Positions 7,420-38,221 of a DNA stretch of 57,175 nucleotides are shown piece by piece; the first letter of the stretch is position 1; the number at the start of each line of letters is the position of its first letter. The DNA is from Clostridia bacterium (GTDB lineage Bacteria; Bacillota; Clostridia; TANB77; CAG-508): assembly GCA_022796725.1 (NCBI GenBank), contig JAAWJE010000009.1, positions 1 through 57,175 on the forward strand. Direction: 5' to 3'. Under the pieces are notes generated by a model. It was not told where the DNA came from and ran no database searches. It saw nothing but the letters and a program-made list of their open reading frames with translations. Made by a program: the position numbers and the translations under genes.

Positions 7420-8544
7420 TCACAATTTTTTATTAAGTTCAACTTGTACTATAAATTCTCTTTTATTTCTTTTTATAGTAAGCTTTACTATATCTCCTGG
7501 TTTTTTAGTATAAATGTACTCTCTAAGTTCTGTCATTTTTGTAATATTTATATCATCGATTTTTACTATAATATCTCCAGCTTTTATACTAGATTTTTTT
7601 AAATTACTGCTCTCATTTATATCAGCAACATAAATACCATCTTCAAAATCTATAACATCTTTTAAATATGGTATTACTTCTTTATCATATCCATATATTC
7701 CTAAATATGCCTCATTAAATTTCCCCTCAGTTTCAAGCTTTTCTATTATTGTTTTCACCATATTTATTGGTATTGCAAATCCTATACCATCTGCATCAGT
7801 TACCTTTACTGAAGTTATTCCTATAACTTCACCAAGTTCATTTATTAATGCTCCTCCACTATTCCCTTCATTTATTGTAGCATCTGTTTGTATTAAACTT
7901 TCCATATATGAATATTTACCATTTTCATCTTTAACTTTTAAAGTCCTTTTTGTACCGCTTATTATTCCTGATGTAACTGTTTTTTCAAATTCAAAACCAA
8001 CTGGATTACCAATTGCATATACATTTTGTCCTATACTAATATCATCTGAATTGCCTAATTTTATAGGACTTAAATTTTCTACTCCTATTTTTACTATTGC
8101 TAAATCAATTTCATTATCTGACCATACAACATTTCCTTTATATTCTACACCTGTATCTAATGTAACATAACAATTGTTAAATTTGTCTCCAACTAAATGT
8201 TGATTTGTAAGAATATATCCCTTTTTAGATACTATTATTCCTGTTCCTATTCCTAAACTTTCTACACCTTTTTTTAAAAATATACTTGTTCCAGTATCTT
8301 TTAATTTGGAAATTCCAACTATACTTTTCATTGCTTCATTTATTACATTCTCACTATTACTATTTTTTATAATTTTACTTTCTATTTCTTTTGCAAGTTT
8401 AGTTCCATATTCTTTTTTTTCATAAGTATATATCTGTCCGTCTAAATAAACAACATAAGCTAATATTCCAAAAAAAATACTCAAACAAATTATTATTATC
8501 TGAATAAAAACATTATTTGCTTTCTTTTTATCTATTCTAAACAT
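7420..8544 (-). CDS. htrA: HtrA/DegP-family (S1C) serine protease with N-terminal membrane anchor and C-terminal PDZ domain
   Basis: 374 aa. TM helix near the N-terminus, His region ILTNQHLV, Asp region DLAIVKI, catalytic Ser in GNSGGALIN, PDZ-like tail (GDIIVKIDD). Confidence 0.85.
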   Translation of the reverse strand: MFRIDKKKANNVFIQIIIICLSIFFGILAYVVYLDGQIYTYEKKEYGTKLAKEIESKIIKNSNSENVINEAMKSIVGISKLKDTGTSIFLKKGVESLGIGTGIIVSKKGYILTNQHLVGDKFNNCYVTLDTGVEYKGNVVWSDNEIDLAIVKIGVENLSPIKLGNSDDISIGQNVYAIGNPVGFEFEKTVTSGIISGTKRTLKVKDENGKYSYMESLIQTDATINEGNSGGALINELGEVIGITSVKVTDADGIGFAIPINMVKTIIEKLETEGKFNEAYLGIYGYDKEVIPYLKDVIDFEDGIYVADINESSNLKKSSIKAGDIIVKIDDINITKMTELREYIYTKKPGDIVKLTIKRNKREFIVQVELNKKL

Positions 8545-8759
8545 TTAATCACCACTCTATTTATACATATCTCTTTATTTTTATTATTCATTTTTTTATA
8601 GAATTTATTTACTTTATTCTAATAAAATAAAAATATTTTTTATTTTTATTTTAATATTACTTTTTAATTGCTTTTTCGTTATATTTCTGTAACATTCAAC
8701 AATATTTGTCTAAACTTTTATATAATGTTTTTACTATAAAAAAAATGGAGATTTTAAAT

Positions 8760-11700
8760 ATGGATGTTGGTAAAAAAATTTATAATTTAACAGGTGTTCA
8801 AGAAGCTATTTTTGCTTCTGAACAATTTTGCAAAGGAACTTCTATTAATAATATTACAGGAATGTTTTATATTAATAATAAAATAGATATTACTGCTCTT
8901 TCTGAAGCACTAAAATTATTTATAAAAAATAATTCTGGTAGCAGAATACAAATAGGATTATCAGACACTAATGAACCTTTTCAATATTTTGAAAATTATA
9001 CTGACTTAACTTTTGAAACAGTATATCCATCAAATTTAGAAGAGGCTTCTTCTCTTACTCAAAAAATAACTGATACTCCTATATTTGATTTTAATTCAAG
9101 ATTATATGATTTTAAACTTTTTAAATTGCCTGATTCTACTGGAGGATTTATTTCGACCTTTCATCATTTAATTTCTGATGCTTGGTCTATGCAATTATTT
9201 ATAGATATAATAGTCTCAAACTATTATAAATTAACTCACAATGGTAATGAATTAGTTTCTATGGAAACTTATGAATATAAGGATTATATAGATTCTTATA
9301 CAGATTATTTAAAAAGTTCAAAATACATAAAAGATAAGGAATTCTGGAAGGAAAATTTCTCTTCTTCATCTACACCAATTACATTACATTCTGATACTAA
9401 CCAAAATGTAGAAGCTGTTGCAGATTATTCTGCTGAGAGATTAAATTTTACATTAAACAGTAATATCATGAAAAAATTATCACCTTATCTACAAGAAAAT
9501 AAAATTTCTGCTTATGCTTTTTTCTTAGCAGTACATTCAATATATTTTAGTAGAATAAATAATTCACAGGATTTTGTAATTGGGACTCCTGTACTTAATC
9601 GTACAAATGTAAAAGAAAAAAATACTACTGGATTATTCATAAATACAATACCATTTTCAGTAAATATAAATAATAAAGAGAATTTTTCTGATTTTGTTAG
9701 GAGAATATCTGTTGATACTATATCATATTTTAGACATCAAAAATATCCATACCAGAATATTTTAAGTGATATAAGAAATGATAAAGATAATTCTTCTATT
9801 AGTAATTTGTATAATGTTTTATACTCTTATCAAAATGCTAGAGCTTATAACTCTTTTGGGGATATTAATTATAAAGCTATTTGGTTTCAACCTAAATATA
9901 TTATTAATGATATACAAATTCATATTCATGATATTTTAAACAGTGGGAACTTATCTATTTCTTATGATTATAGAACATCAAAATTTTCTGAAAATTTAAT
10001 TAAATCTACTTACAATAGAATTATTGCTATAGTTAATCAAATTTTAGATGCAAAAGAAAACATTAAAATTTCTGATATAGAAATAGTAACACCTACTGAA
10101 AAGAAAAAATTACTATATACTTTTAATAATACACATAAAGAATATGATAAAAATAAAACAATTCAAAGTTTAATAGAAGAACAATGTGATAGATTTCCAA
10201 ATAAAATAGCATTAATATGTAACGATAAAAAAATTAGTTATAGAGAACTTAATTCTAGAGCAAACCAAATTGCTCATTATTTAAGGAGTTTAGGTGTAAA
10301 GCCTAATACATTTGTTGGACTTCTTTGTGATAGGTCTCTAGAGATGATTATTGGACAACTTGGTATATTAAAATCTGGAGCTGCATACTTACCAATTGAC
10401 CCTGATTATCCTAGTGATAGAATTTCTTATATGCTAGAAAATAGCGATGCTAAGATTGTACTTTCTAAAGAAAATTTATTTAATTTAATTTCTAGTAATT
10501 CAAATGAGATTACTAAATTAGATATATCATTAGAAAATAGTATAATTTATAAATCTTCATCATGTAAGAATCCAAAAAATATAAATTCATCAGAAGATTT
10601 AGCCTATATTATATATACTTCTGGTTCAACTGGTAATCCAAAAGGAGTACAGTTAAAACATATTAATATAAATAATTTTATTCTAGGAACAACAGATAAA
10701 ATTAAATTTTCAGATGATAAAACTATCGTTTCTGTAACTACTATATGTTTTGATATATTTGTTCTTGAAAGTCTACTTCCACTACAAAATGGATTGACTA
10801 TTGTAATAGCAAATGAAAAAGAACAAAACAACATAAATTTCTTAAATGATTTATGTTTAAAATATAATGTGAATATTATTCAAACAACTCCTTCTCGATT
10901 AAATAAATTAACTAACGATATTGACTATTGTAGATATATAAATAATTTAACAGATATCTTAGTTGGTGGAGAACCTTTACCAATAACACTTCTTGAGCAT
11001 TTAAGAAAGTTAACTAAAAAAGCTAAAATATATAATATGTATGGACCTACTGAAACAGCTGTATGGTCTACAATTAAAGACGTATCTAATTATAAAAGCT
11101 CTACTATCTCAATAGGAACTCCTATTGCTAATACTTCTATTTATGTATTAGATGAAAAAACAAATAAATTATTACCACCAGGAAACCCTGGTATTCTCTA
11201 TATTGGTGGAGATGGCGTTTGCAAAGGATATCATAAAAGAGAAAATTTGAATAAAACATTGTTTATAAATAACCCTTATAATAATAACGAAATTATTTAC
11301 AATACAAATGATTTAGTAAAACAATTACCAAATGGTGAATTAATTCACTTGGGAAGAGCTGATTTTCAAGTAAAAATAAGAGGATATAGAATAGAACTTG
11401 GAGAAATAGAAAATAAGATATTATCTTATGATAATATAAACGAAACTGTTTTAGTACCTCATGAATCTAAATTTTTAATATGTTATTATTCTTCTAGTAA
11501 AGATATTATTATATCTGAATTAATATCTTATCTTTTAGAATATTTACCAAATTATATGATACCAGCTTATTTTATAAAATTACCTAACCTTCCTCTTACA
11601 CCTAATGGAAAAATAGATAGAAAAAAATTGCCAAAACCTAATATGGATTCTGAACAACTTTTAGAAATTGCAAGTACTAATACAGAAAAAATATTAGAAG

Positions 11701-13115
11701 AAAATATATTAAAAATATTAAATAATGGAATGGAACATATTGATATAAATACTCCATTTATATCTTTAGGTTTAGACTCTCTTAGTATTGTTCAGCTACA
11801 ATCAATGTTACTTGGTTATCAATTAAATATTACAACACAAACTTTTTATAAATTTCCTACTGTAAAGAAACTTGCAAAATACATTGATTCTAGCAAAAAT
11901 ATAAATGAAAATGTATCATTTACACTTGATCCAATGTTTTTACATAATAAAGATGAAAAAGCTATTATTTCTAATGATAGTAATGATTTAGGAAATGTTT
12001 TTTTAACAGGTGCAAATGGTTTTATTGGTATTCATGTTTTAAAAGAATTATTAGATACCACAAATTGTAACATATATTGTTTAGTTAGAGGAGCTAACTT
12101 AGAAATTTCTACTAATAGATTATCAGATAATTTTAAATATTATTTTAATTTATCTATTAATCCATATTTGAATAAACGTGTATTCATTATTAATGGTGAC
12201 ATTACAAATGAAAATTTAGTAATGTCAAATGAAATAAATGATATGTTAGGAAATAATATTAATACTGTGATTCATACTGCTGCTGTTGTAAAACATTATG
12301 GAAATTTTGATGAATTCAAAGAAATAAATATAAATGGAACGAAAAATATTGCTAAATTTGCTTTTAAAAATCACATTCGTTTTATACATATATCATCAAT
12401 TAGTATTTCTGGTAATTACCTTTTAAAACAAGATAATCACAATGTTGAGTTTTCTGAAAATGATTTTTATATTGGTCAGAATTATACTGAAAATGTATAT
12501 GTTAATAGTAAACTTGAAGCTGAAAATGTGATATATTCTTATATGAAAAAAGGATTACAAGGAAAAGTACTTCGTATTGGAATAGTAGCTGGTAGATATT
12601 CTGATGGACTATTTCAAAAAAACATGGACTCAAATGCTTTTTATAGTAGAATAAAATCAGTAACAAATTTAAAGGTAATTTCTGAAGATATGATTAATCA
12701 AAAAATAGAATTTACACCTATTGATGAGTGTGCTAAAGCAATAGTTTTACTTTCAAAAACAAAACAATATGATAATAAAATTTTCCATTTATATAATCAT
12801 AATTTAGTATCTATAAATAATGTTATAAAAACATTAAAGAAATTAAATATTAATGTAGAAGTTCTCTCAAGTGAAAGTTTTAAAGAAAAAGTATTAGAAG
12901 CTACAAAAGCTATTAATAATGCTGTTTCAGCAATTGTTAATGATTTTGATTATACAAATTTATCTTTAAATTATAATTTCACTGTTAATATAAAATCTGA
13001 ATATAGTATAAAAATATTACATGATTTAGGCTTTAGTTGGAGTAAATTAAATAATGATTATCTATATAGAATATTTAATTATATGATAACTACTGGATTT
13101 ATTTCTAAAGATTAG
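8760..13115 (+). CDS. single-module non-ribosomal peptide synthetase, domain order C-A-T-R (terminal thioester reductase)
   Basis: C domain HHLISDAWS (9162-9182). A domain cores LAYIIYTSGSTGNPKGV, NMYGPTE, GELIHLGRADFQVKIRGYRIELGEIE, PNGKIDRKKL. PCP LGLDSLS. R domain LTGANGFIGIHV (NAD(P) fold) and YVNSK. The ORF is open from 8706 (TTG). ATG 8760 was chosen because GGAG lies 9 nt upstream; ATG 8745 is also possible. Confidence 0.9.
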   Translation: MDVGKKIYNLTGVQEAIFASEQFCKGTSINNITGMFYINNKIDITALSEALKLFIKNNSGSRIQIGLSDTNEPFQYFENYTDLTFETVYPSNLEEASSLTQKITDTPIFDFNSRLYDFKLFKLPDSTGGFISTFHHLISDAWSMQLFIDIIVSNYYKLTHNGNELVSMETYEYKDYIDSYTDYLKSSKYIKDKEFWKENFSSSSTPITLHSDTNQNVEAVADYSAERLNFTLNSNIMKKLSPYLQENKISAYAFFLAVHSIYFSRINNSQDFVIGTPVLNRTNVKEKNTTGLFINTIPFSVNINNKENFSDFVRRISVDTISYFRHQKYPYQNILSDIRNDKDNSSISNLYNVLYSYQNARAYNSFGDINYKAIWFQPKYIINDIQIHIHDILNSGNLSISYDYRTSKFSENLIKSTYNRIIAIVNQILDAKENIKISDIEIVTPTEKKKLLYTFNNTHKEYDKNKTIQSLIEEQCDRFPNKIALICNDKKISYRELNSRANQIAHYLRSLGVKPNTFVGLLCDRSLEMIIGQLGILKSGAAYLPIDPDYPSDRISYMLENSDAKIVLSKENLFNLISSNSNEITKLDISLENSIIYKSSSCKNPKNINSSEDLAYIIYTSGSTGNPKGVQLKHININNFILGTTDKIKFSDDKTIVSVTTICFDIFVLESLLPLQNGLTIVIANEKEQNNINFLNDLCLKYNVNIIQTTPSRLNKLTNDIDYCRYINNLTDILVGGEPLPITLLEHLRKLTKKAKIYNMYGPTETAVWSTIKDVSNYKSSTISIGTPIANTSIYVLDEKTNKLLPPGNPGILYIGGDGVCKGYHKRENLNKTLFINNPYNNNEIIYNTNDLVKQLPNGELIHLGRADFQVKIRGYRIELGEIENKILSYDNINETVLVPHESKFLICYYSSSKDIIISELISYLLEYLPNYMIPAYFIKLPNLPLTPNGKIDRKKLPKPNMDSEQLLEIASTNTEKILEENILKILNNGMEHIDINTPFISLGLDSLSIVQLQSMLLGYQLNITTQTFYKFPTVKKLAKYIDSSKNINENVSFTLDPMFLHNKDEKAIISNDSNDLGNVFLTGANGFIGIHVLKELLDTTNCNIYCLVRGANLEISTNRLSDNFKYYFNLSINPYLNKRVFIINGDITNENLVMSNEINDMLGNNINTVIHTAAVVKHYGNFDEFKEININGTKNIAKFAFKNHIRFIHISSISISGNYLLKQDNHNVEFSENDFYIGQNYTENVYVNSKLEAENVIYSYMKKGLQGKVLRIGIVAGRYSDGLFQKNMDSNAFYSRIKSVTNLKVISEDMINQKIEFTPIDECAKAIVLLSKTKQYDNKIFHLYNHNLVSINNVIKTLKKLNINVEVLSSESFKEKVLEATKAINNAVSAIVNDFDYTNLSLNYNFTVNIKSEYSIKILHDLGFSWSKLNNDYLYRIFNYMITTGFISKD

Positions 13116-13160
13116 TATAAAATAAATATAACAATAAAAAAGTTAAAGGAAGATTATAAT

Positions 13161-15209
13161 ATGAAAAACTTAAAAAAAGCACCAAAGGAAAAAAAGAAAA
13201 TACACTTTTTTTCCTTACCTAGTGCAAAAATATCTATTATATATTATGCGATTTCAACAATATCAATAATTGCTATATCACTCGTTATACCATTAATTCT
13301 TAATTATCCACCAGATTCTATTAATACACCTTTTGATATTCAAATGTCTGGAATTGCTTATGTATGGCAATTTACATTAATAGATATTTTAGCATTATTT
13401 GCAATTTATTTTTTTATGAGATTTTTATTTAAACCAATAGATAATTGGTTTATTCATAAAGATAATCCTAAATATTCTAGTCAAAAAAATATTGATATAA
13501 TTAGAAAAAAGTGTATTAATTTACCTTATATTGTCTTTATAGTAGAACTTATTGTTCCTGGTATTGTGTCTTTAATTATCCTCACTTTAACAGGAAGTCA
13601 TGAATCTACAATGATCATAAAGCTATCTGTTATAATAGTTTCATTTTCCTGTCTATTTGCAGTATCTTCATATATGTTTTCTAAAAATATATTTGCAAAA
13701 TTACTAGCAGAAACTTATAAAGATAATTCAAATATAGGACTTAGAATTAGCTTAAATATAAAACTACTAATGCAAATACTTCCAATTTGCATAATTGGAT
13801 TGTTAGGTATGGGACTTATTGGTTATTCTAAATCAATCAAATCAGCTGAAGACACATGGTTCACAGTATATAATAATGAATTAAATAATGTTTTTGATAC
13901 AAATGAGATTTATACTTATGAAAGGATAAGCAATTTATTACAAAAAGTTAATTTATATCATGATAAAGATTCTGTATCAACTTTTATTTTATCTGAAGAT
14001 GGTAAAGTTGATACTATATCTGGAAAAAAGCCATCAAACTTCGTAATCGAATATACTTTGCAACTTTCTGAAAAAAACAATAATAAAACCTATGATAGTT
14101 ATGCTGTAGATACTCAAGGTGCTACAATAAAAGTACATACTAAATCAAAAAGTTATTATGTATGTATTTTATATGATACTAATGTTAAGGAAAGTTTAAA
14201 ATATATTACTTATACTTTTATAATATTACTTATTATTATAACTGCTATTTTAATAACTATTATTAATTCAATATCAAAAGATATTTCAGCTGTTTCTGAT
14301 AGATTAAGTCATATATCAAATAATGAAGAAGTTGATAAGTTTACTACTATTCCAGTTATCTCAAATGATGAAATTGGAGATTTAAGTAAATCTTATAATA
14401 GTATTCAGAAAATGAATAAAGAAAATCTTCAAAAAATAAAAAATAGTCAAGACTTGCTTATTGAACATGAAAGACTTGCTTCACTAGGTCAAATGATAGG
14501 TGGAATAGCTCACAATTTAAAGACTCCTATAATGTCAGTATCTGGAGCTTCTGAAGGACTTTCTGATTTAATAAAAGAATTAGATATGTCTATTGGAAAT
14601 AAAAATGTTACAGAAGAAGATTTTCATGATATTGCTTCTGATATGAATGAATGGATTAATAAAATAAGAACTCATACTTCTTATATGTCAGATGTTATAA
14701 CTGCTGTAAAAGGACAAGCAATTGTGTTTTCAGAAGAACAAGTTTATCCATTTAACTCAAAAGAATTATTTAAACAAGTAGAAATATTAATGAAACACGA
14801 ATTAAAAAATTCTATAACTAGATTAAATATTAAGGATTATACAACCGAAGACGATTTAATTTATGGAAATATTAATAGTTTAGTACAAATACTAAATAAT
14901 ATGATTTCTAATTCTATACAAGCATATTCATTAATAAAGCATGATAAAGAAACAACTATTAATTTAACTTCTAAAATAGAAAAAAATAAGATTATAATTA
15001 ATATTCAAGATTTTGGACCAGGTCTTCCTGATAATGTTAAAGAAAAATTATTTAAAGAAATGATTACTACAAAAGGAAAAGAAGGTACTGGACTTGGATT
15101 ATTTATGTCATATTCAAACATAAAAGCACATTTTCATGGTGAAATTACTTTTGAAACATCTTCTAAAGGAACTACTTTTAATATTATTTTACCTATTCAC
15201 AAATCATAG
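13161..15209 (+). CDS. membrane sensor histidine kinase (multi-TM N-terminus, extracytoplasmic domain, HAMP, DHp, HATPase_c)
   Basis: 682 aa. HAMP-like SNDEIGDLSKSYN, H-box LASLGQMIGGIAHNLKTPI, N-box LNNMISNSIQA, G-boxes IQDFGPGL and GTGLGLF. Starts 45 nt after the NRPS stop. Confidence 0.85.
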   Translation: MKNLKKAPKEKKKIHFFSLPSAKISIIYYAISTISIIAISLVIPLILNYPPDSINTPFDIQMSGIAYVWQFTLIDILALFAIYFFMRFLFKPIDNWFIHKDNPKYSSQKNIDIIRKKCINLPYIVFIVELIVPGIVSLIILTLTGSHESTMIIKLSVIIVSFSCLFAVSSYMFSKNIFAKLLAETYKDNSNIGLRISLNIKLLMQILPICIIGLLGMGLIGYSKSIKSAEDTWFTVYNNELNNVFDTNEIYTYERISNLLQKVNLYHDKDSVSTFILSEDGKVDTISGKKPSNFVIEYTLQLSEKNNNKTYDSYAVDTQGATIKVHTKSKSYYVCILYDTNVKESLKYITYTFIILLIIITAILITIINSISKDISAVSDRLSHISNNEEVDKFTTIPVISNDEIGDLSKSYNSIQKMNKENLQKIKNSQDLLIEHERLASLGQMIGGIAHNLKTPIMSVSGASEGLSDLIKELDMSIGNKNVTEEDFHDIASDMNEWINKIRTHTSYMSDVITAVKGQAIVFSEEQVYPFNSKELFKQVEILMKHELKNSITRLNIKDYTTEDDLIYGNINSLVQILNNMISNSIQAYSLIKHDKETTINLTSKIEKNKIIINIQDFGPGLPDNVKEKLFKEMITTKGKEGTGLGLFMSYSNIKAHFHGEITFETSSKGTTFNIILPIHKS

Positions 15210-15255
15210 TTTTTATGTTTATAATAGACTATATTAATGAAATGGAGTTGATATT

Positions 15256-16323
15256 ATGAGAATTAATATTAATAAAACAATAAGAACTGACTCAGATCCA
15301 AATAACACATATAAAATAATAGCCGTTGATGATGAAATGGGAATAATAGATTCTCTTTCTGTATATCTTAGTAGAGTTGGATATAAATTAGTAGGTGTAA
15401 CTGACCCAGAGGAAGCAATTGAAAGAGTAAAAAATGAACATTTTGATTTAATGCTTTTAGACTTTATTATGACTCCAATTCATGGTGATAAGGTTGTAGA
15501 AGAAATAAGAAAGTTTAATAAAGAATTATATATATTATTACTAACTGGACATAAGGAATTAGCTCCTCCTCTTGAAATAATAAAAAAATTGGATATTCAA
15601 GGGTATTGCGAAAAAAGTGATAAATTTGATCAATTGCTATTATTAATTGAATCTGGTATAAAGTCAATAAAACAAATGAATTTAATTAAATCTATAAATA
15701 AAGAATTAGAAGATTCTAAAGAATTGCTAGAAAAAGCGTATTTAGAAACAATAGAAACTCTAAGATATACTGTTGAAGCAAAAGATTTTTATACAAGAGG
15801 TCATTCTGATAGAGTATCTGAATATTCTGTATTAATAGGAAGTAAAATGAACTTACCAGATGAAGAAATAAATAAGTTGCGTATAGGTGGATTATTCCAT
15901 GATATAGGAAAAATTGGAATTCCTGACTCAATATTATTAAAGACTGATAAATTAACAAATGAAGAATATTCAGAAATAAAAAACCACCCTTCTATTGGAG
16001 CTCATATATTATCTAACGCTACATTATTTAAAGAATTGATCCCAATTGTTAAACATCATCATGAAAGATATGATGGGAAAGGATATCCAGCAAATTTGGA
16101 AGGAGATAATATACCTCTTCTTGCGAGAATTACTAGCATAGCAGATACTTTTGATGCTATGGTATCTAGACGTTCTTATCGTGATGCTTTATCTTTAGAA
16201 TATACAAAAGAAGAATTAAAGAAATGCAGTGGAACTCAATTAGATCCTAATATTGTTCCTATATTCTTAGACATTATTGAAAATGAATATAATAAAATAG
16301 AAGAAATACAAGCTAAATATTAA
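15256..16323 (+). CDS. response regulator with receiver domain fused to an HD-GYP domain (RpfG-like c-di-GMP phosphodiesterase)
   Basis: 355 aa. REC: IIAVDDE...DLMLLDFIM...LLLTGH. HD-GYP: RGHSDRV, FHDIGKIGIPD, HHERYDGKGYP. GGAG RBS. Starts 46 nt after the kinase. Confidence 0.85.
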   Translation: MRININKTIRTDSDPNNTYKIIAVDDEMGIIDSLSVYLSRVGYKLVGVTDPEEAIERVKNEHFDLMLLDFIMTPIHGDKVVEEIRKFNKELYILLLTGHKELAPPLEIIKKLDIQGYCEKSDKFDQLLLLIESGIKSIKQMNLIKSINKELEDSKELLEKAYLETIETLRYTVEAKDFYTRGHSDRVSEYSVLIGSKMNLPDEEINKLRIGGLFHDIGKIGIPDSILLKTDKLTNEEYSEIKNHPSIGAHILSNATLFKELIPIVKHHHERYDGKGYPANLEGDNIPLLARITSIADTFDAMVSRRSYRDALSLEYTKEELKKCSGTQLDPNIVPIFLDIIENEYNKIEEIQAKY

Positions 16324-16333
16324 ACTTAAAAGT

Positions 16334-16369
16334 AAAATCCCAATTGAATTTATTTTCAATTGGGATTTT
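16334..16369. terminator. bidirectional rho-independent terminator between convergent genes
   Basis: Perfect 15-bp stem aaaatcccaattgaa / ttcaattgggatttt with A/T runs on both sides. Confidence 0.8.
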
Positions 16370-16385
16370 ATAATTCACATATTTT

Positions 16386-18302
16386 TTATCTATCCATTCC
16401 ATCATCTACTTGTTGTTGATTTTCTAATAAATTCTCTTGTAAGCTTTCACTTGTAAGCCATCCTAAAATATGACCTTTTTCATCAACTATATGGTATGAA
16501 AACTTAGCATCAGGATATTTTTCTTTTAATTCTAATAAAGTAACATCATCAGTAGTTACTGAAATATATCCATCGTCTGTTGCAATTCCAATTTGAGAAA
16601 TTATCTTTGCTTCTCCTGCATGATTTTCAAAACTTCCACAGTTTCCTGTTCCTTCTGGTGTTTCAAAATATACTCCTTTATCAATAGTCATTCTGCTTCC
16701 AACTCTTATTGATTCTAAATAAGTTTTTGAAGCATCTTTTTCATCTACTTCTTCTTTTTTATCAATTGATTTCTTTTCTTTATTAGTATCTGTATTTTCT
16801 TTTACATATGATGTAAAAGTATTTTTTTCTTCAAATTTATCTTCTATTATATCTTTTTTATCATCAAATACTTTTTTTACATCAGCAACTGCTTGGAATG
16901 ATACAACAGATGTTTTATTATCATCTGATTCTCTAAAATTAATCTTCTCATCAATATCATATGCTTGTATTTGTGTTTCTGATGTATATTCTTCATCTAA
17001 TGGTATTACAGAAAAATATTTTGGTACAATTGTTGCTACAGTTGCTACACCTGCTAATGCTATTATACCTGCTACTCCTCCTAATGTAGCCTTTAAAAGT
17101 TTCTTTTTATCTGAACATACTTTATTTCTTATAGAGTCCGCCTTATCTTTCAATTTTCTTGTATATCTTTTTACTACACTTTCTTTTTTAGGAGTTTTAT
17201 CTTCTTTTTCATGAGATTCAACTTCTTTTTCAGGAATTTCAATTACGAATGTTTTTACAATTGCACTTGGTCTATTTTCATCTGCGCCAAGTATTGTACC
17301 ATTTCTCATCTCAATAGCATCTAATTTTCTTCTCTTTTTGTTTGCTAAATTTACTGTTTGTGATTTCTTTCCTTTTTTTGTTGAAGTACCACTTATATCT
17401 ATAATGTCAATTCCTTCTCTTTCTCTTTGAGCTTTATATATTCTATCTTTTCTTTCATTATCTTCTTGTATTTTTTGTTTATATCTATTTTTTAATTTTC
17501 TGCTTTCTCTAAAAGCTCTTTTAGAAGCTTGTATGCTTTGTCTTCTACTAATAGCCTTTTTAGGTTTAGAAACAACTGGCTTATCACTATTTTTACTAGT
17601 TTCAGTATCATCTACAACTTCTTCTGCCTCTCTGTAAGAAATTGATTTACTTTTTTTATCTTGTTGAGTTTCAAAATGTTCTTTTTTATAATCACCAAAA
17701 ATCTCACTGCTAAATCCTTCAGCAAATATATATTGTCTATCATATAAATCTACTTTTTCATCTATCTTAATTTCTGGTTCTTCTTGTTTACTTTCATCTT
17801 CGACAAAAACTTCTTGCTTAGGTTCTATATCTTTTTCTTCATTTTCATCTGTATCAATATTAGTTCTTTTTTGTTTTCTTGTTGATATTGTCATTTTTAA
17901 TCTATCTATTAAAGATACTTTATCATCTATACCTGTCACGCCTGTTATTCCAGCCTTTTCTAGAAGTTCTTTTCTTGTTTGTTTTTCTCTTTTTATATAT
18001 TCTGCTCTTGATTCTCCTGATTGTTTTGGAATTTCTTTAACAATTACATTTAAATATTTAGTCAAATAATTAGTTCCCATCTCATAATCATATTCCTGAA
18101 GACATTCATATAAGTCTAAATTTACTTTAGATATTAATTCTTTTGAAAGATCATATTCTTCCTTAATCTCAGATCTTAAAATTTCAGCTTTCCCAGGATA
18201 ATTATTAATTTTTATTTTTCTAACTTCATTTCCATCATCAAATATGTATTCTCCATCTAGTAAATTAATTTTTATTTTTTTAATATTAATTTCCAAAATC
18301 AA
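16386..18302 (-). CDS. hypothetical single-pass membrane protein: Lys/Glu-rich cytoplasmic part, globular C-terminal domain
   Basis: 638 aa with one clear TM helix (LGGVAGIIALAGVATVATIV). The N-terminal 400 aa are highly charged. No recognisable catalytic motif. Confidence 0.6.
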   Translation of the reverse strand: MILEINIKKIKINLLDGEYIFDDGNEVRKIKINNYPGKAEILRSEIKEEYDLSKELISKVNLDLYECLQEYDYEMGTNYLTKYLNVIVKEIPKQSGESRAEYIKREKQTRKELLEKAGITGVTGIDDKVSLIDRLKMTISTRKQKRTNIDTDENEEKDIEPKQEVFVEDESKQEEPEIKIDEKVDLYDRQYIFAEGFSSEIFGDYKKEHFETQQDKKSKSISYREAEEVVDDTETSKNSDKPVVSKPKKAISRRQSIQASKRAFRESRKLKNRYKQKIQEDNERKDRIYKAQREREGIDIIDISGTSTKKGKKSQTVNLANKKRRKLDAIEMRNGTILGADENRPSAIVKTFVIEIPEKEVESHEKEDKTPKKESVVKRYTRKLKDKADSIRNKVCSDKKKLLKATLGGVAGIIALAGVATVATIVPKYFSVIPLDEEYTSETQIQAYDIDEKINFRESDDNKTSVVSFQAVADVKKVFDDKKDIIEDKFEEKNTFTSYVKENTDTNKEKKSIDKKEEVDEKDASKTYLESIRVGSRMTIDKGVYFETPEGTGNCGSFENHAGEAKIISQIGIATDDGYISVTTDDVTLLELKEKYPDAKFSYHIVDEKGHILGWLTSESLQENLLENQQQVDDGMDR

Positions 18303-30962: not shown

Positions 30963-32964
30963 TTAATTATTACTATCAATTGAACCAAATAATTCATCAA
31001 ACTTTGCTTCTAATTCCTTTTGTATATCATTTAGTTCTTCTTTTTTATTATCTATTTTCTGCTCTGTTTTTGTTTCTATATTTGATTGTTCTGTTTTTGT
31101 TTCATTTGTTGTATTAGATGTATTTTCTTCTGTTTTATTATTATCTTCAAATAAATCATCTAGTTCTTCTATTTTTAAATCATTTTGTTCCTCTTTTTCT
31201 ACATAAGGATTATATGGATTAAACTTTCTATAAACACCTCTATCTGGTATTTCTCTAGTGTTATGATCTACTGCAAAAGGAGCAATCATTTTTGCTGTAT
31301 TATACTTATAATAATAATACTTTCTAGCCTTAATTGGTTTTAGTCCTTTTTCATAAATAATACAATCATCAACATCTAATCTTCTAAGTTCATCTGGTGT
31401 TAGCAACGCTCTTGCCATATTTTGTTCTGATACACTTTTTCCTTGTTTCCAATCGTCTTTATCTTTATTTACTGATTCGCTTTCTCTGAATATTGTTTTC
31501 TCACCAAGAGCTTTTGAAAAATATTCAACTGTTTTTTGTGAGTTACTTCCTAAAAATAAGTGAGTATCACAGTTACCCATGATTGTTTCATTAGATTCCT
31601 TATATACTGCTTCTAATTGATCTAAGTTCTGCAGAATAACACTAAATGAAATTTTTCTACTTCTTGATGTAGATATTTTTTTATCAAAATCTGGTATCTT
31701 ACCAATGTTTGCAAACTCATCTAAAATAAAATATGTAGGTACTGGAAGTGCTCCTCCCTTCTCATCAGCGAAATCATATAATTGTTGTATCATCTGTGAG
31801 AAGAAAATTGTAAGCAAGAAGTCATACGCTGCATGAGTATCTGAAGATATAACATATACCGCTGTTTTTTCTTCTCCTATCTTTTTAAAATCTATTGTAT
31901 TTGTTGACGTTAGTGCTTCAATTTCTTTTGAATCAAATTTACCAAGTTTTGATTGAAGTGATGATAAAATTGATCCATACGTTTTTTCTGGTGCTACTTC
32001 AATAGATTTATAATTCATTCTTGCTGGGTGATCATAAGGTAATTGATTAATTAAATTTGTAAGTAAATTATCTCCACCATTACTATTTGCTGCTCTAACT
32101 AACTCTGAACAACTTGCTAAACTTTGTTCTTCTGGTGGTCTAACAGCTTTTAAATAATATATTAATGCTTTAAGTAACATTTCAGCCATATCTTCCCAAA
32201 ATGGGTCTGATGCACTATTAGTACTTTGCCCTTTTACTATCGTGTTTGCTACAACGTCTACATCTATTTCATTTTTGATATGTAACAATGGATTATATCC
32301 ATCACTATTTTGTGGTCTTACTAAATTTAAAACTTTTATTTTATATCCGTTTTCTTTTAAATATCCAGCTGTTTTATCATAAAGTTCACCTTTCGGATCA
32401 GTAAATACATAAGAACCTAATAATTGACATGCATTTGGAATAACATAAGATGCAGATTTACCAGCACCTGAACCGTCCAACAACCAAAACATTTACATTT
32501 CCTCTTTTATCTGTTGGTAAATATTCCTTTTCAGCAAGTATTATTCCTTTCTTATTACTTAATGTCTTATATTCTTCTCCATTTATACACCAATCACTTG
32601 AACCATTTTCTATTCCATCATACTCATGTTTTGGTAGCGCTTTTGTAATTCCTATAGTTACTGCGAAAATATATACTAAAGTAAATTTCCATAGTACACT
32701 AAAAAACATTCCATCTGTGCTTCCAGATAATGCTTGTCCTAAAGCAAGAAATGGATTTACTATGTATTTTGCGATTCCAGCAAAAAAAGCTTCCCATGCT
32801 GCTCCACCATTTATTCCCAAATTTCCGACTAACATTCCTTCATGAATAGAATTAGCAAGTGGTGCAACAAATACTACGACAAGTATTAGCCATAGTATGA
32901 AGCTTACAATTAATTTATTTTTTATTTTCTTTATAGCCTTACCTATTTTTTCTCCTATATTCAT
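30963..32964 (-). pseudogene. VirD4/TraG-type type IV coupling protein, disrupted by a 1-nt insertion in the Walker A box
   Basis: The 168-aa ORF (membrane N-domain) ends ...NVNVLVVGRFRCW*. The 509-aa ORF begins MFWLLDGSGAGKSASYVIPN. Deleting one base at about 32475 (minus strand reads gtt gtt gga C ggt tca ggt gct ggt aaa) restores VLVVGGSGAGKS. Walker B YFILDEFANIG lies downstream. Confidence 0.8.
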
Positions 32965-35673: not shown

Positions 35674-38127
35674 TTATTCTTTTAATTTAAAGTTCTTTAC
35701 ATTTGCTATTTCTATAAGTTTATCTATTAATTCTGAATATTTTATTCCTGCTTCTTCAAATAGTTTAGGATACATGCTTATATTTGTAAATCCTGGTAAT
35801 GTATTTATTTCATTTAATATTATTTTATTTGTATTATTTTCAACAAAGAAGTCTACTCTTGACAAGCCTTTTCCATCAACAGCTTTGAAAGCTTTTATTG
35901 CAATTCTTTTTATTTCTTCTTGTATTGATTTGTCTAAATTCGCTGGTATAACTGTTTTTGATTCTTGATTTTGATATTTTGCTTCATAACTATAAAAAGT
36001 ATCTGCTGCTAAAACTTCTCCTGTACAAGATGCAATTACTTCATCGTTTCCAAGTACTGCACACTCAAGTTCCCTACCAATAACGCCTTCTTCTATTATT
36101 ATCTTATTATCATAATTACTAGCATATTCGATTCCTAAAGCTAATTCCTCTTCATTTGTAACTTTTCTTACACCTATTGATGAACCTGCATTTGAAGGTT
36201 TTACAAACATTGGAAATTTAAGTTTTTTATCTGCTGTTTTGCATATATTTTCTAATGTTTCTTCCTTTTCATTTGTTTTTTCATCAACATATATATATTT
36301 ACCATCAACTTTTTTTATCCATATATATTTTGCTTGTTCAATACTAGCATTTTTTAATACTTCTTTTGTAAATACTTTATCCATACAAATAGCTGATGCT
36401 AGCACTCCACAACCTACATAAGGTTTTCTCATAATTTCAAATATTCCTTGTATACACCCATCTTCTCCATATATACCATGTAATACTGGAAAAGCAATGT
36501 CACAATCTTCTAATAAACACATTAAATTTTGAGATTTTTTCAAATCACTTTCTTTTAAAGTTTCTAATTCTTTAATGTCTCCAATATATTCAAAAGTATC
36601 TCCTTCTTTATTTATATATATTATTTTTATTTGGTATTTGTCTTTATTTATATTTTCTAAAATTGATTTACCAGATTTGATAGATACATCATGCTCTGAT
36701 GACATACCTCCTATAATAACACCTACCCTGATTTTTCCTTTTATTTCATTATATATTTCACCAAATTTCATACTATTTGATGCTTTTAAAAACACTTTAT
36801 CCTCTTTTTCCATTATACTTTTAAGTACATTAGAAGCTTTTTCATTACAATCACATATATATATTTTTTCTTTATCCATTCCCATATTTATAGCTTCTTT
36901 TGCAATGTACTCTGCCTCCTTCCCAACTGTTATTAATATATTAACTTTTTGCTCTGCAATTTCTCTACCTACTTTTGTATGCAATTCCATTGAGAATCTA
37001 CCTAATTCTTTTATATCTCCAAGAACTGCTATTTTCCTTCCACCTTGCAGAGACATAAGATATTCTAATCCTGGTTTAATTGATTCATAGCTTGCATTAT
37101 AGTAATCTTTTATTAAAGTTATATTATTTTCTATCCTTTCACAATCTAATCTATTTAAAGTCATTTCTGTATTTTCTAAAGCTTTTTTTGCACTTTCTAT
37201 TGAAATTCCCAATTCTCTTCCTACTGCAATAGCAGATAATGCATTCATTACAAATGGTTCTCCTGGTTTAGAAGTATATAAAATATATTCTTTATTATTT
37301 TCCTTTATTTTAAATTTACTTTTATTTTCAAAATGTTCTACATCATATCCTTTTATATCTGAATTTGATTGAATTCCAAATGTTTTAGTTCTTATTTCAG
37401 TATTTTTGTTGTTCCATTTATTTAATAAATCATTATCATTATTTAATATAAGTATTCCATCCTTTTTCATTCCATCTAGTATTTCCATTTTTGCCTTTAA
37501 AATATTTTCTCTTGAACCAAGAATTCCTATATGAGCTGTTCCTATATTAGAAATAACTGCAATAGTAGGTTTAGCAATCTGTGTTAATTCACTAATTTCT
37601 CCAAAATGATTCATTCCCATTTCCACAACTAATATATCATGTTCTTTTAATTTAAGTATTGTCAATGGTAATCCTATACTATTATTAAAATTTCCTTGTG
37701 TTTTTAATACTTTATATTTTTGAGATAACACACTTGCAATAGCATCTTTTGTGCTTGTTTTTCCAACACTACCTGTTACTGCAATTACTGGTATATCATA
37801 TAAATCTCTTTTATATTTTGCTAATTCTATTAAGGCTTTTTTTCCATCTTTAACTTTTATTAATGTTCTTTTTCCATCATTATAATTTTTCTTTTCTTCA
37901 TCTGTTAGCATTAATTCGTCTACAATACATATTTTTGCTCCATTTTTAAAAGCAGTGTTACAATACGTATTTCCATTATTTAGTTCTCCTTTAATTGCTA
38001 TAAAAGTATCTCCTTCTTTTAAATTTCTTGTATCTATTGATACATCAATGATTGTCTCATTTTCGTCTCCGAAAATAATCTCTCCTTCAATTTGTTTTAA
38101 TACATCCTTAATTTTTATATCCTTCAT
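35674..38127 (-). CDS. fused UDP-MurNAc-tripeptide--D-Ala-D-Ala ligase (MurF) / D-alanine--D-alanine ligase (Ddl)
   Basis: One uninterrupted ORF. The N-terminal about 465 aa are MurF (AVTGSVGKTSTKD, NHFGEI, DAYNASY-like KDYYNASYES). The C-terminal about 350 aa are Ddl (IRVGVIIGGMSSEHDVS, FVKPSNAGSSIGV, NEINTLPGFT). Junction ...NEIKGK/IRVGV at about 36727-36745. The start was moved to ATG 38125-38127 (AAGGTG upstream). Confidence 0.85.
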   Translation of the reverse strand: MKDIKIKDVLKQIEGEIIFGDENETIIDVSIDTRNLKEGDTFIAIKGELNNGNTYCNTAFKNGAKICIVDELMLTDEEKKNYNDGKRTLIKVKDGKKALIELAKYKRDLYDIPVIAVTGSVGKTSTKDAIASVLSQKYKVLKTQGNFNNSIGLPLTILKLKEHDILVVEMGMNHFGEISELTQIAKPTIAVISNIGTAHIGILGSRENILKAKMEILDGMKKDGILILNNDNDLLNKWNNKNTEIRTKTFGIQSNSDIKGYDVEHFENKSKFKIKENNKEYILYTSKPGEPFVMNALSAIAVGRELGISIESAKKALENTEMTLNRLDCERIENNITLIKDYYNASYESIKPGLEYLMSLQGGRKIAVLGDIKELGRFSMELHTKVGREIAEQKVNILITVGKEAEYIAKEAINMGMDKEKIYICDCNEKASNVLKSIMEKEDKVFLKASNSMKFGEIYNEIKGKIRVGVIIGGMSSEHDVSIKSGKSILENINKDKYQIKIIYINKEGDTFEYIGDIKELETLKESDLKKSQNLMCLLEDCDIAFPVLHGIYGEDGCIQGIFEIMRKPYVGCGVLASAICMDKVFTKEVLKNASIEQAKYIWIKKVDGKYIYVDEKTNEKEETLENICKTADKKLKFPMFVKPSNAGSSIGVRKVTNEEELALGIEYASNYDNKIIIEEGVIGRELECAVLGNDEVIASCTGEVLAADTFYSYEAKYQNQESKTVIPANLDKSIQEEIKRIAIKAFKAVDGKGLSRVDFFVENNTNKIILNEINTLPGFTNISMYPKLFEEAGIKYSELIDKLIEIANVKNFKLKE

Positions 38128-38221
38128 AAAAATCACCTTATTTATTTTTATGATTTGCTATATATTAATATTCGCAAATTTCTTTAATCTTATCACTATT
38201 TTATTTTTTTGTAAAATGTTA

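What the first reader, a model, noticed from the sequence alone, without database searches (positions are those of the whole stretch)
10752..11612. A-domain specificity code read by eye as DILQLGMVWK, i.e. glycine-like
Seen: I aligned the A4-A5 region (CFDIFVLES...NIIQTTPS...ILVGGE...YNMYGPTETAVW...PNGKID) by hand to the GrsA-PheA numbering. This gives positions 235 D, 236 I, 239 L, 278 Q, 299 L, 301 G, 322 M, 330 V, 331 W, 517 K. Established: DILQLGLIWK-type codes are the classical glycine signature. Inference: the enzyme would load glycine, N-acylate it through the C domain, and release an N-acyl-glycinal. A second reduction would give an N-acyl-ethanolamine-like lipid. The hand alignment needed a 5-residue and a 3-residue insertion relative to PheA, so one or two positions could be off.
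Basis: partly seen in the sequence, partly recalled or inferred. Interest (0 to 1): 0.6.

Follow-up and report, generated by a model that had tools for sequence, protein, structure and literature searches.

The report
Glycine-coding one-module peptide-aldehyde synthetase
The ten pocket residues of this enzyme do read DILQLGMVWK, a glycine signature, so this one-module synthetase from an uncultured small-genome Clostridia bacterium most likely makes a small reduced glycine product, probably N-acylated; as an enzyme it is an ordinary new member of a known family.

Summary
Observation confirmed. The gene at 8760-13115 (+) encodes an intact C-A-T-R NRPS.

The code is 9/10 identical to two glycine codes. 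One is DILQLGVVWK of AB3403, which was crystallised with glycine. The other is DILQLGMIWK, from the literature. It is 8/10 identical to DILQLGLIWK (DhbF module 1) and at most 5/10 to any other amino-acid code. All 12 single-module homologues carry DILQLG[MV]VWK.

Interpretation partly supported:
- Glycine loading is well supported.
- Reductive release is likely: the R motifs are intact and the nearest characterised R domain is the aldehyde-forming AusA.
- N-acylation is plausible but not shown. The C domain keeps its catalytic His and Asp, and near-complete congeners have only the fatty-acid ACP as another carrier. However, the domain resembles elongation (LCL) domains more than solved lipo-initiation domains.
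- A second reduction to an N-acyl-ethanolamine has no support.

Wider context: across the order this NRPS always sits beside a sensor kinase, and the kinase's sensing half changes with the NRPS. The scan found the same thing earlier on other genomes, so this is a further member, not a first sighting.

The parts
8760..13115 (+). NRPS gene, 1451 aa, domain order C-A-T-R (the longest ORF starts at TTG 8706)
   Evidence: Translation; Pfam Condensation, AMP-binding, PP-binding and NAD_binding_4 all above cut-off; public gene calls give 1451 aa
8775..10115 (+). Condensation domain at the N-terminus
   Evidence: PF00668, 244 bits; falls in the clade of N-terminal C domains, separate from internal C2 domains
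9162..9185 (+). C3 active-site motif HHLISDAW: catalytic His and Asp kept, the canonical Gly replaced by Ala
   Evidence: N-terminal C domains of the family read HHxxxDA/S, internal ones read HHxxxDG
10176..11624 (+). Adenylation domain with core motifs A3 YTSGSTGNPKG, A5 NMYGPTE, A7 YNTND (variant), A8 GRADFQVKIRGYRIELGEIE and A10 NGKIDRK
   Evidence: PF00501, 298 bits; TIGR01733, 387 bits, above its cut-off of 317; motif positions
10752..11612 (+). Specificity pocket: ten code residues reading DILQLGMVWK (glycine type)
   Evidence: Multiple alignment with PheA, codons, nearest solved pockets are glycine domains
11706..11885 (+). Carrier (T/PCP) domain; GLDSL with the phosphopantetheine serine at 11769-11783
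   Evidence: PF00550
11997..13112 (+). Terminal thioester reductase domain with TGANGFIG (12006-12029), SSISISG and YVNSK (12498-12512)
   Evidence: PF07993, 148 bits; PDB 6VTJ at 2e-65 and AusA R 4F6C at 5e-42; TIGR01746 at 174 bits, below its cut-off of 213
13161..15209 (+). Polytopic sensor histidine kinase, 45 nt downstream of the NRPS (context, not part of the code finding)
   Evidence: Pfam HATPase_c and HisKA; 6-7 predicted membrane helices; adjacency to the NRPS conserved in relatives
15256..16323 (+). Response regulator with an HD-GYP type output domain (context)
   Evidence: Pfam Response_reg plus HD_5; NF053512 c-di-GMP phosphodiesterase family at 4e-59, 201 bits, below its cut-off of 400
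7420..8544 (-). Divergently transcribed membrane-anchored HtrA-type serine protease (context)
   Evidence: Pfam Trypsin_2 plus PDZ; NF047968; conserved neighbour in many relatives
16333..16370 (.). 16-bp hairpin that closes the three-gene unit

Best explanation
The gene encodes an intact single-module NRPS (C-A-T-R). Its adenylation domain selects glycine, activates it as glycyl-AMP and loads it on the carrier domain. The N-terminal condensation domain then most likely transfers an acyl group to the glycine amine; by exclusion the donor is a fatty or short acyl-ACP or acyl-CoA from primary metabolism. The terminal reductase cleaves the thioester with NAD(P)H and releases an N-acyl-glycinal (N-acyl-aminoacetaldehyde). 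Shown here: the domain order, intact catalytic motifs and the glycine-type code. Inferred: the acyl transfer, the identity of the donor and the two-electron extent of reduction. My estimates for the separate steps are glycine about 0.85, reductive release about 0.8 and N-acylation about 0.55-0.6. The confidence given is for the whole chain.
For: Code DILQLGMVWK from the multiple alignment with PheA. It is 9/10 identical to AB3403 (DILQLGVVWK, read; 4ZXI holds AMP and glycine per PMC10510592). It is 9/10 identical to DILQLGMIWK, a glycine code in PMC12283262. It is 8/10 identical to DhbF module 1 (DILQLGLIWK; a glycine module) and at most 5/10 to the other amino-acid codes I compared, several of which I recalled from memory. 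The code is conserved as DILQLG[MV]VWK in all 12 single-module homologues and as DILQ[LM]G[MV][VI]WK in orthologues down to about 40% identity. D235 and K517 are present, so the substrate is an alpha-amino acid. The C-domain catalytic His and Asp are conserved in every orthologue that has the motif region. The C domain lies in the clade of N-terminal C domains, separated from internal C2 domains by a branch with 100% support. The window's own genome (80% complete) has a single C domain, and its only other carrier is one ACP, beside a FabF. Five near-complete congeners each have exactly one C domain and two carrier domains, the FAS ACP and this T domain. The R domain has TGxxGxxG and YxxxK, and its best characterised solved relative is the aldehyde-forming AusA R domain. 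N-terminal C domains are the usual mark of N-acylated peptides (PMC12964202), and N-acyl tails are reported in this gut family (PMC8210680 citing Guo 2017).
Against: No biochemical data exist and no dedicated predictor was available here. The C-domain profile scores higher on LCL elongation domains than on solved lipo-initiation domains, and the Gly of HHxxxDG, thought to admit the acyl chain in RzmA, is Ala here. Relatives with C-A-T-C-A-T-R architecture are cited as pyrazinone makers, which needs a free amine. No acyl ligase or ACP gene lies in the unit. No PPTase was found in this 80%-complete genome, and congeners show only one AcpS-sized PPTase and no Sfp-sized one. The A7 motif is the variant YNTND. 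TIGR01746 scores below its curated cut-off.
Confidence: 0.5

Rival explanations
1. Glycine is loaded and reduced, but the C domain does not acylate it. Free aminoacetaldehyde is released and condenses with itself to dihydropyrazine or pyrazine, or reacts with other amines or carbonyls.
For: C-A-T-C-A-T-R relatives are cited as producers of pyrazinones, which form only from a free N-terminal amine (PMC10979478; PMC8210680). The C domain lacks the canonical Gly of HHxxxDG and does not resemble solved lipo-initiation domains best. No acyl-activating gene lies in the unit.
Against: The catalytic His and Asp of the C domain are kept across an order-wide set of orthologues down to about 30% identity. 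That degree of conservation is hard to explain for a domain with no function.
Confidence: 0.2
2. The enzyme makes N-acyl-glycyl-S-T as in the main explanation, but the R domain performs a four-electron reduction. The product is then an N-acyl-ethanolamine.
For: NRPS R domains of the same fold release alcohols in other systems such as MxaA and the M. tuberculosis R domain (PMC8024701). MxaA is a detectable relative at 4e-23. The full-length same-architecture model MxcG matches end to end.
Against: The nearest characterised R domain is the aldehyde-forming AusA (5e-42 against 4e-23 for MxaA). The family chemistry reported so far is aldehydes. The extent of reduction cannot be read from sequence. 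No separate reductase lies in the unit.
Confidence: 0.12
3. Despite its glycine-like code, the A domain activates another small substrate, such as alanine, serine or a non-proteinogenic acid.
For: Specificity codes predict, they do not prove. The exact string DILQLGMVWK was not found in the literature text I could search. The A7 motif is unusual.
Against: All eight variable positions fall inside the published glycine consensus. Bulky L239, Q278, L299, M322 and W331 leave room only for a very small side chain (inference from the PheA pocket model). Relatives that use other substrates carry clearly different textbook codes.
Confidence: 0.1
4. The gene is intact but inactive in vivo, because no Sfp-type phosphopantetheinyl transferase is available to prime the T domain.
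For: No PF01648 hit in this genome. There is only one hit of about 130 aa, the AcpS size, in each of five congeners.
Against: The gene is open and conserved in 51 of 61 genomes of the order, with motifs intact. That implies selection for function. Some AcpS-type enzymes do accept other carrier proteins (my own knowledge, not tested here).
Confidence: 0.05

Closest known systems
Glycine-activating A domains with solved structures: DhbF module 1 (PDB 5U89) and AB3403 (PDB 4ZXH/4ZXI)
   Same: They are the two best PDB matches to the pocket segment. Their codes, DILQLGLIWK and DILQLGVVWK, match the query's DILQLGMVWK at 8 and 9 of 10 positions. AB3403 also begins with a C domain in a stand-alone single module.
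   Different: DhbF is an internal module of a siderophore line. AB3403 ends in a thioesterase, not a reductase, and has partner A and carrier proteins. Identity over the aligned segments is only moderate.
Gut-Clostridia reductase-terminated NRPSs that give dipeptide aldehydes or pyrazinones (Guo et al. 2017, Cell 168:517; ruminopeptin, Schneider and Balskus 2018)
   Same: True homologues. About a hundred C-A-T-C-A-T-R proteins of roughly 2470 aa match at 33-48% identity. The query's C domain nests among their N-terminal C domains. The terminal R domain is shared, and many of them also carry DILQLG-type codes.
   Different: This protein has one module, not two, so it cannot make a dipeptide or a pyrazinone. 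Its product has not been described. I could not read the primary papers here and used only secondary citations.
AusA/PznA of Staphylococcus aureus (A-T-C-A-T-R, aureusimines)
   Same: The nearest characterised R domain (4F6C, 5e-42; NF047350 is the best NCBIfam hit). It is an aldehyde-releasing reductase.
   Different: AusA has no N-terminal C domain, is bimodular and uses Val and Tyr or Phe. The score of 789 bits is far below the equivalog cut-off of 2500.
Single-module C-A-T-R enzymes: MxcG (myxochelin) and NpsB/TomB (pyrrolobenzodiazepines, N-acyl-prolinal)
   Same: The same four-domain logic: acylate a carrier-bound amino acid, then release it by reduction. MxcG aligns end to end and the TomB C domain is detectable (8QNF).
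   Different: Different substrates (Lys, Pro derivatives), and the donors are aryl-carrier proteins encoded nearby. MxcG scores 477 bits against a cut-off of 2300, so the query is not a member.
Acyl-peptidyl-glycinal intermediate of saframycin biosynthesis (SfmC substrate)
   Same: A precedent that NRPS reductases generate an N-acylated glycine aldehyde. Myristoyl-Ala-glycinaldehyde is used as the SfmC substrate (PMC8648761).
   Different: There it is a pathway intermediate consumed by Pictet-Spengler chemistry in a large cluster. Nothing of that kind is encoded here.
Rpf/DSF signalling of Xanthomonas (RpfF synthase, RpfC sensor kinase, RpfG REC-HD-GYP regulator)
   Same: A system-level analogy only: a lipid-type signal synthase encoded beside a membrane sensor kinase and an HD-GYP response regulator. 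This lead came from earlier scan reports and rests on general knowledge.
   Different: The synthase there is a crotonase-family enzyme, not an NRPS, and I tested no homology between the synthases. The function of the present cassette is untested.

Membership tests
Glycine-specific NRPS adenylation domain | Asp235 and Lys517, which bind the alpha-amino and carboxylate groups | tested here: met
   D at 10752-10754 and K at 11610-11612
Glycine-specific NRPS adenylation domain | Pocket residues matching D-I-L-Q-[L/M]-G-[L/M]-[I/V]-W-K | tested here: met
   DILQLGMVWK; consensus stated in PMC12283262; 9/10 to AB3403 and 8/10 to DhbF module 1
Glycine-specific NRPS adenylation domain | Preferential glycine-dependent adenylation in vitro | not testable with these tools
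   Needs ATP-PPi exchange or a hydroxamate assay
Functional NRPS A domain | Core motifs A3, A5, A7, A8 and A10 | tested here: met
   All found. A7 is YNTND instead of Y[RK]TGD but keeps the Asp. TIGR01733 scores 387 bits, above its cut-off of 317
Starter (lipo-initiation) condensation domain | First domain of the assembly line, with no upstream module anywhere in the genome | tested here: met
   N-terminal position; a single C domain in this genome and in five congeners
Starter (lipo-initiation) condensation domain | Closer in sequence to characterised starter C domains than to LCL elongation domains | tested here: not met
   Profile against PDB: TycC6 181 bits, Txo1/2 168 and LgrA 162, against RzmA 126-133 and CDA C1 76 (single-sequence search). 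Within the family it does cluster with N-terminal C domains, not internal ones
Catalytically competent C domain | HHxxxDG motif with the second His and the Asp | tested here: met
   HHLISDAW: His and Asp present, Gly replaced by Ala as in nearly all N-terminal C domains of the family
NRPS terminal thioester reductase (SDR fold) | Family model match, TGxxGxxG cofactor motif and a Ser/Thr-Tyr-Lys triad | tested here: met
   PF07993 at 148 bits, above its cut-off of 20; TGANGFIG, SSISISG and YVNSK; PDB 6VTJ at 2e-65. TIGR01746 scores 174 bits, below its cut-off of 213
NRPS terminal thioester reductase (SDR fold) | Two-electron (aldehyde) rather than four-electron (alcohol) release | not testable with these tools
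   PMC8024701 states that the determinants are unknown. Only relative similarity is available: AusA scores above MxaA
Gut-Clostridia dipeptide-aldehyde NRPS family | Homology to the C-A-T-C-A-T-R proteins | tested here: met
   33-48% identity to about a hundred such proteins; the C domain nests in their C1 clade
Gut-Clostridia dipeptide-aldehyde NRPS family | Two modules giving a dipeptide | tested here: not met
   One module, 1451 aa
MxcG and AusA equivalogs (NCBIfam) | Score above the curated equivalog cut-off | tested here: not met
   MxcG 477 bits against 2300; AusA 789 bits against 2500

The most novel reading that the evidence does not exclude
The glycine code is not just a substrate label. 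It may be the specificity determinant of a private chemical signal. In this reading the NRPS product (an N-acyl-glycinal or a derivative) is the ligand of the polytopic sensor kinase encoded 45 nt downstream, and that kinase controls c-di-GMP turnover through the HD-GYP response regulator. Different clades of this order would use different amino acids (Gly, Thr, Ser, Ala-like, Met-like and others) or two to three modules, each with a matching kinase sensing domain. That would be an NRPS-based counterpart of agr-type or DSF-type cell-cell signalling in uncultured small-genome gut Clostridia.
Probability: 0.3. Interest if true: 0.8.

Novelty: new member of a known kind. Interest (0 to 1): 0.4.

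Why it matters
As an enzyme it is a routine addition. It is a glycine-loading, reductase-terminated NRPS in a family already known to make peptide aldehydes in gut Clostridia. Two things make it worth recording. First, the predicted product, an N-acyl-aminoacetaldehyde or its alcohol, has not been described as a final bacterial metabolite as far as I could find, and it would be a small reactive lipid made by abundant uncultured gut bacteria. Second, the code is one state of a variable character. Orthologues at the same locus carry Thr, Ser, Ala-like and other codes, or extra modules, and the neighbouring kinase's sensing half changes with them. If that link is functional, reading the A-domain code would predict which strains can 'hear' each other. 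Both ideas can be tested with standard expression and assay work.

Tried and rejected
1. A pairwise local alignment to PheA gave DILQIVMV-K. I rejected it as a gap-placement artefact after the multiple alignment and the motif anchors agreed with each other.
2. LgrA was the top whole-domain PDB hit (662 bits) and looked like strong support for glycine. The score is the sum of two A domains, Val 313 and Gly 347, so I did not use it. I searched the pocket segment alone instead.
3. The genome-contig scan with the protein returned only two irrelevant weak loci. The genome search and the fetch from genomes replaced it.
4. A literature search for DILQLGLIWK found nothing. A search of the supplement of PMC12283262 for four code strings found nothing. 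A search for 'glycinal' gave only the SfmC substrate. A search for C-A-T-R architectures gave no paper on this enzyme type in Clostridia.
5. Guo et al. 2017 and Schneider and Balskus 2018 are not held. Statements about them rest on secondary citations and my memory.
6. The promoter scan is uninformative in this AT-rich DNA: 70 sites found against 76 expected.
8. Cluster look-ups gave no names beyond 'Clostridia bacterium', so the taxon remains unnamed.
9. I did not run a structure prediction. It would not separate glycine from other small substrates better than the code does.
Full report
**What is there.** The window is very AT-rich, about 25% G+C. It is contig 14 of a 1.24-Mb metagenome-assembled genome that is 80% complete. 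The finding lies inside one long ORF, 8706-13115 on the + strand. Pfam finds, in order, Condensation (residues 24-470 of the TTG-ORF translation), AMP-binding (491-843), PP-binding (1001-1060) and NAD_binding_4, the thioester reductase type (1100-1346). All are above their cut-offs. The likely start is ATG 8760, preceded by GGAG. This gives the 1451-aa product also found in public gene calls. It is the only condensation domain in the genome.

**Checking the observation.** I first verified my PheA reference. It does so only because it places gaps inside or beside the conserved GGE and NxYGPTE motifs. A MAFFT alignment of PheA with 198 A domains taken from 121 homologues returns DILQLGMVWK for the query. 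The ten codons run from 10752 (GAT, Asp235) to 11610-11612 (AAA, Lys517).

**Is the code glycine-like?** Four lines of evidence say yes.
- A PDB search with only the pocket segment ranks two glycine domains first. One is DhbF module 1 (5U89). The other is AB3403 (4ZXH/4ZXI), which was solved with AMP and glycine in the pocket. Reading their aligned residues gives DILQLGLIWK and DILQLGVVWK.
- A 2025 survey of 93 glycine-activating domains reports that glycine codes vary at positions 299, 322 and 330. It lists Leu/Met299, Leu/Met322, Ile/Val330, Trp331 and Lys517 as the glycine-derived residues, and DILQLGMIWK as a recurrent glycine code (PMC12283262). The query fits this consensus at every position.
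- Identity to the glycine codes is 8-9 of 10. Identity to the other amino-acid codes I compared is at most 5 of 10 (several of those comparison codes are from my memory).
- The code is conserved. All 12 single-module homologues carry DILQLG[MV]VWK. Orthologues in other genera and families carry DILQ[LM]G[MV][VI]WK down to about 40% protein identity.

The apparent top hit of the whole A domain to linear gramicidin synthase is not evidence, because that score sums two A domains. The A domain's core motifs are intact apart from a variant A7, YNTND.

**The condensation domain.** Within the family the answer is clear. In a tree of 218 C domains, the single-module C domains form one clade with 100% support. 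That clade nests among the N-terminal C domains of the bimodular relatives and is separated from the internal C2 domains by a long branch with 100% support. The two groups also differ in the active-site motif: N-terminal domains read HHxxxDA or HHxxxDS, and internal ones read HHxxxDG.

Against solved structures the picture is less tidy. Both the single sequence and a 22-member profile score higher on LCL elongation domains than on lipo-initiation domains. The LCL scores are TycC6 181 bits, Txo1/2 168 and LgrA 162. The starter-type scores are RzmA 126-133 and CDA C1 76. A 461-residue surfactin synthetase construct scores 140-142; I believe it is the SrfA-A starter domain, but I did not check this. 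The domain is therefore a starter by position and by family clade, but it is not a member of the characterised starter class.

It looks catalytic, because the second His and the Asp are kept in every orthologue that has the motif region. By exclusion its donor should be an acyl-ACP or acyl-CoA. This genome has one ACP and one FabF besides the NRPS. Five near-complete congeners with the orthologous gene each have exactly one C domain and two carrier domains, the small ACP and the NRPS T domain. This is an inference, not a demonstration. Relatives with the C-A-T-C-A-T-R architecture are cited as pyrazinone makers, and pyrazinone formation requires an unacylated amine.

**The reductase.** The cofactor motif TGANGFIG and the YVNSK pair are present. 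The best solved relative is the PCP-R didomain of Mru_0351 (6VTJ, 2e-65), whose product is unknown. [quoted passage not shown] MxaA, an alcohol former, is more distant at 4e-23. The same paper states that it is unclear how R domains set the extent of reduction. An N-acylated glycine aldehyde has a precedent as the SfmC substrate in saframycin work.

**Caveats on function.** No PPTase was found in this incomplete genome. Each of five congeners has only one PPTase hit, of AcpS size. No acyl-activating gene lies in the unit, although 3-4 FadD-like ligases exist elsewhere in the genome.

**Surroundings.** The NRPS is followed after 45 nt by a 682-aa histidine kinase with 6-7 predicted membrane helices. 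After a further 46 nt comes a response regulator with an HD-GYP type domain. One strong hairpin follows at 16333-16370, and an HtrA protease gene is transcribed divergently upstream.

This arrangement recurs in public contigs carrying homologues at 56-65% identity. In a sample of 61 genomes of the same order (five families, genomes of 0.9-2.0 Mb), 51 have a homologue. In the 37 further loci I fetched, a kinase gene lies next to the NRPS in all but one short locus.

The A-domain code differs by clade:
- glycine type in the query's clade;
- DFWN[IV]GMVHK, the textbook Thr code;
- DVWHFSLVDK, Ser-like;
- DVFWLGCTFK, Ala-like;
- DVCYLGGICK, Met-like;
- several unassigned codes.

In other genera the same locus holds two- or three-module NRPSs. 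The kinase's catalytic core (49-91% identical to the window's in 32 of the 37 loci that have a kinase match; about 30% in five family-f3 loci, which look like a different kinase) and the regulator (60-81%) stay similar. The kinase's sensing half falls from 57% to 25% identity in step with the NRPS, and it is undetectable in all seven multi-module loci. Within the genus, two genomes with nearly equal Tex identity to the window (78% and 76%) carry a glycine-type NRPS (57% identical) and a DAIFGGLMFK-type NRPS (31%).

This is the pattern expected of a synthase-receptor pair. Relatedness between the sampled genomes confounds it, however, and I did not test it statistically. After I had made these comparisons I looked up earlier notes of this scan. 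Several follow-up reports on other genomes reached the same two conclusions: a glycine code, and an NRPS that varies together with the kinase sensor. They also proposed Rpf/DSF as the nearest analogue. So the scan has seen this before on other DNA.

**Verdict.** The product proposal is reasonable for the aldehyde, uncertain for the N-acylation and unsupported for the second reduction. As an enzyme this is a new member of a known kind. The more interesting question, whether the code specifies a signal read by the adjacent kinase, remains open and can be tested.

Noticed in passing
window 7420-16370; loci L012, L014, L016, L018-L048, L054-L060: The cassette htrA (divergent) | NRPS | sensor kinase | REC-HD-GYP regulator is conserved across five families of the order. 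The NRPS varies in A-domain code (Gly, Thr, Ser-like, Ala-like, Met-like and unknown codes) and in module number (1-3). The kinase's sensing half diverges with the NRPS, while the kinase core and the regulator stay similar.
   Followed up: partly
window 9162-9185 and the family alignment: N-terminal C domains of this family read HHxxxDA(W) or HHxxxDS, whereas internal C2 domains read the canonical HHxxxDG. This is a clean sequence marker of the first-position C subtype, and its meaning is unknown.
   Followed up: partly
genomes G002, G009, G013, G015, G019 (L049-L053): Each near-complete congener with the orthologous NRPS has a single PPTase hit of about 130-150 aa, the AcpS size, and no Sfp-sized one. 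The T domain would have to be primed by an AcpS-type enzyme.
   Followed up: no
genomes G002 versus G006, G017 and G020 (same genus as the window): Tex is 76-78% identical to the window's in all of them. The NRPS is 57% identical with a Gly code in G002. In G006 and G020 it is 31-33% identical with the code DAIFGGLMFK; in G017 it is 32% identical and its code was not read. There are therefore two deeply divergent NRPS types within one genus.
   Followed up: partly
window 35674-38136 (-): An 820-aa ORF fuses a Mur-ligase (Mur_ligase_M and Mur_ligase_C) to a complete D-Ala-D-Ala ligase. This is an uncommon fusion of two consecutive peptidoglycan steps.
   Followed up: no
window 38319-45476 (-): A 2385-aa protein contains 12 MucBP (mucin-binding) repeats, which suggests that the organism attaches to host mucus.
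   Followed up: no
window 30963-32492 (-) and 53849-55561 (+): There are two VirD4/TraG-type coupling-protein genes.
   Followed up: no
window 16386-18302 (-): A 638-aa ORF between the regulator and tex has no Pfam family and one predicted membrane helix. A 547-aa gene with no Pfam hit lies near tex in L014, on its other side; I did not test whether the two are homologous.
   Followed up: no
window 11298-11312: The A7 motif reads YNTND instead of Y[RK]TGD. The ribose-binding Asp is kept, and the effect of the Gly-to-Asn change is unknown.
   Followed up: no
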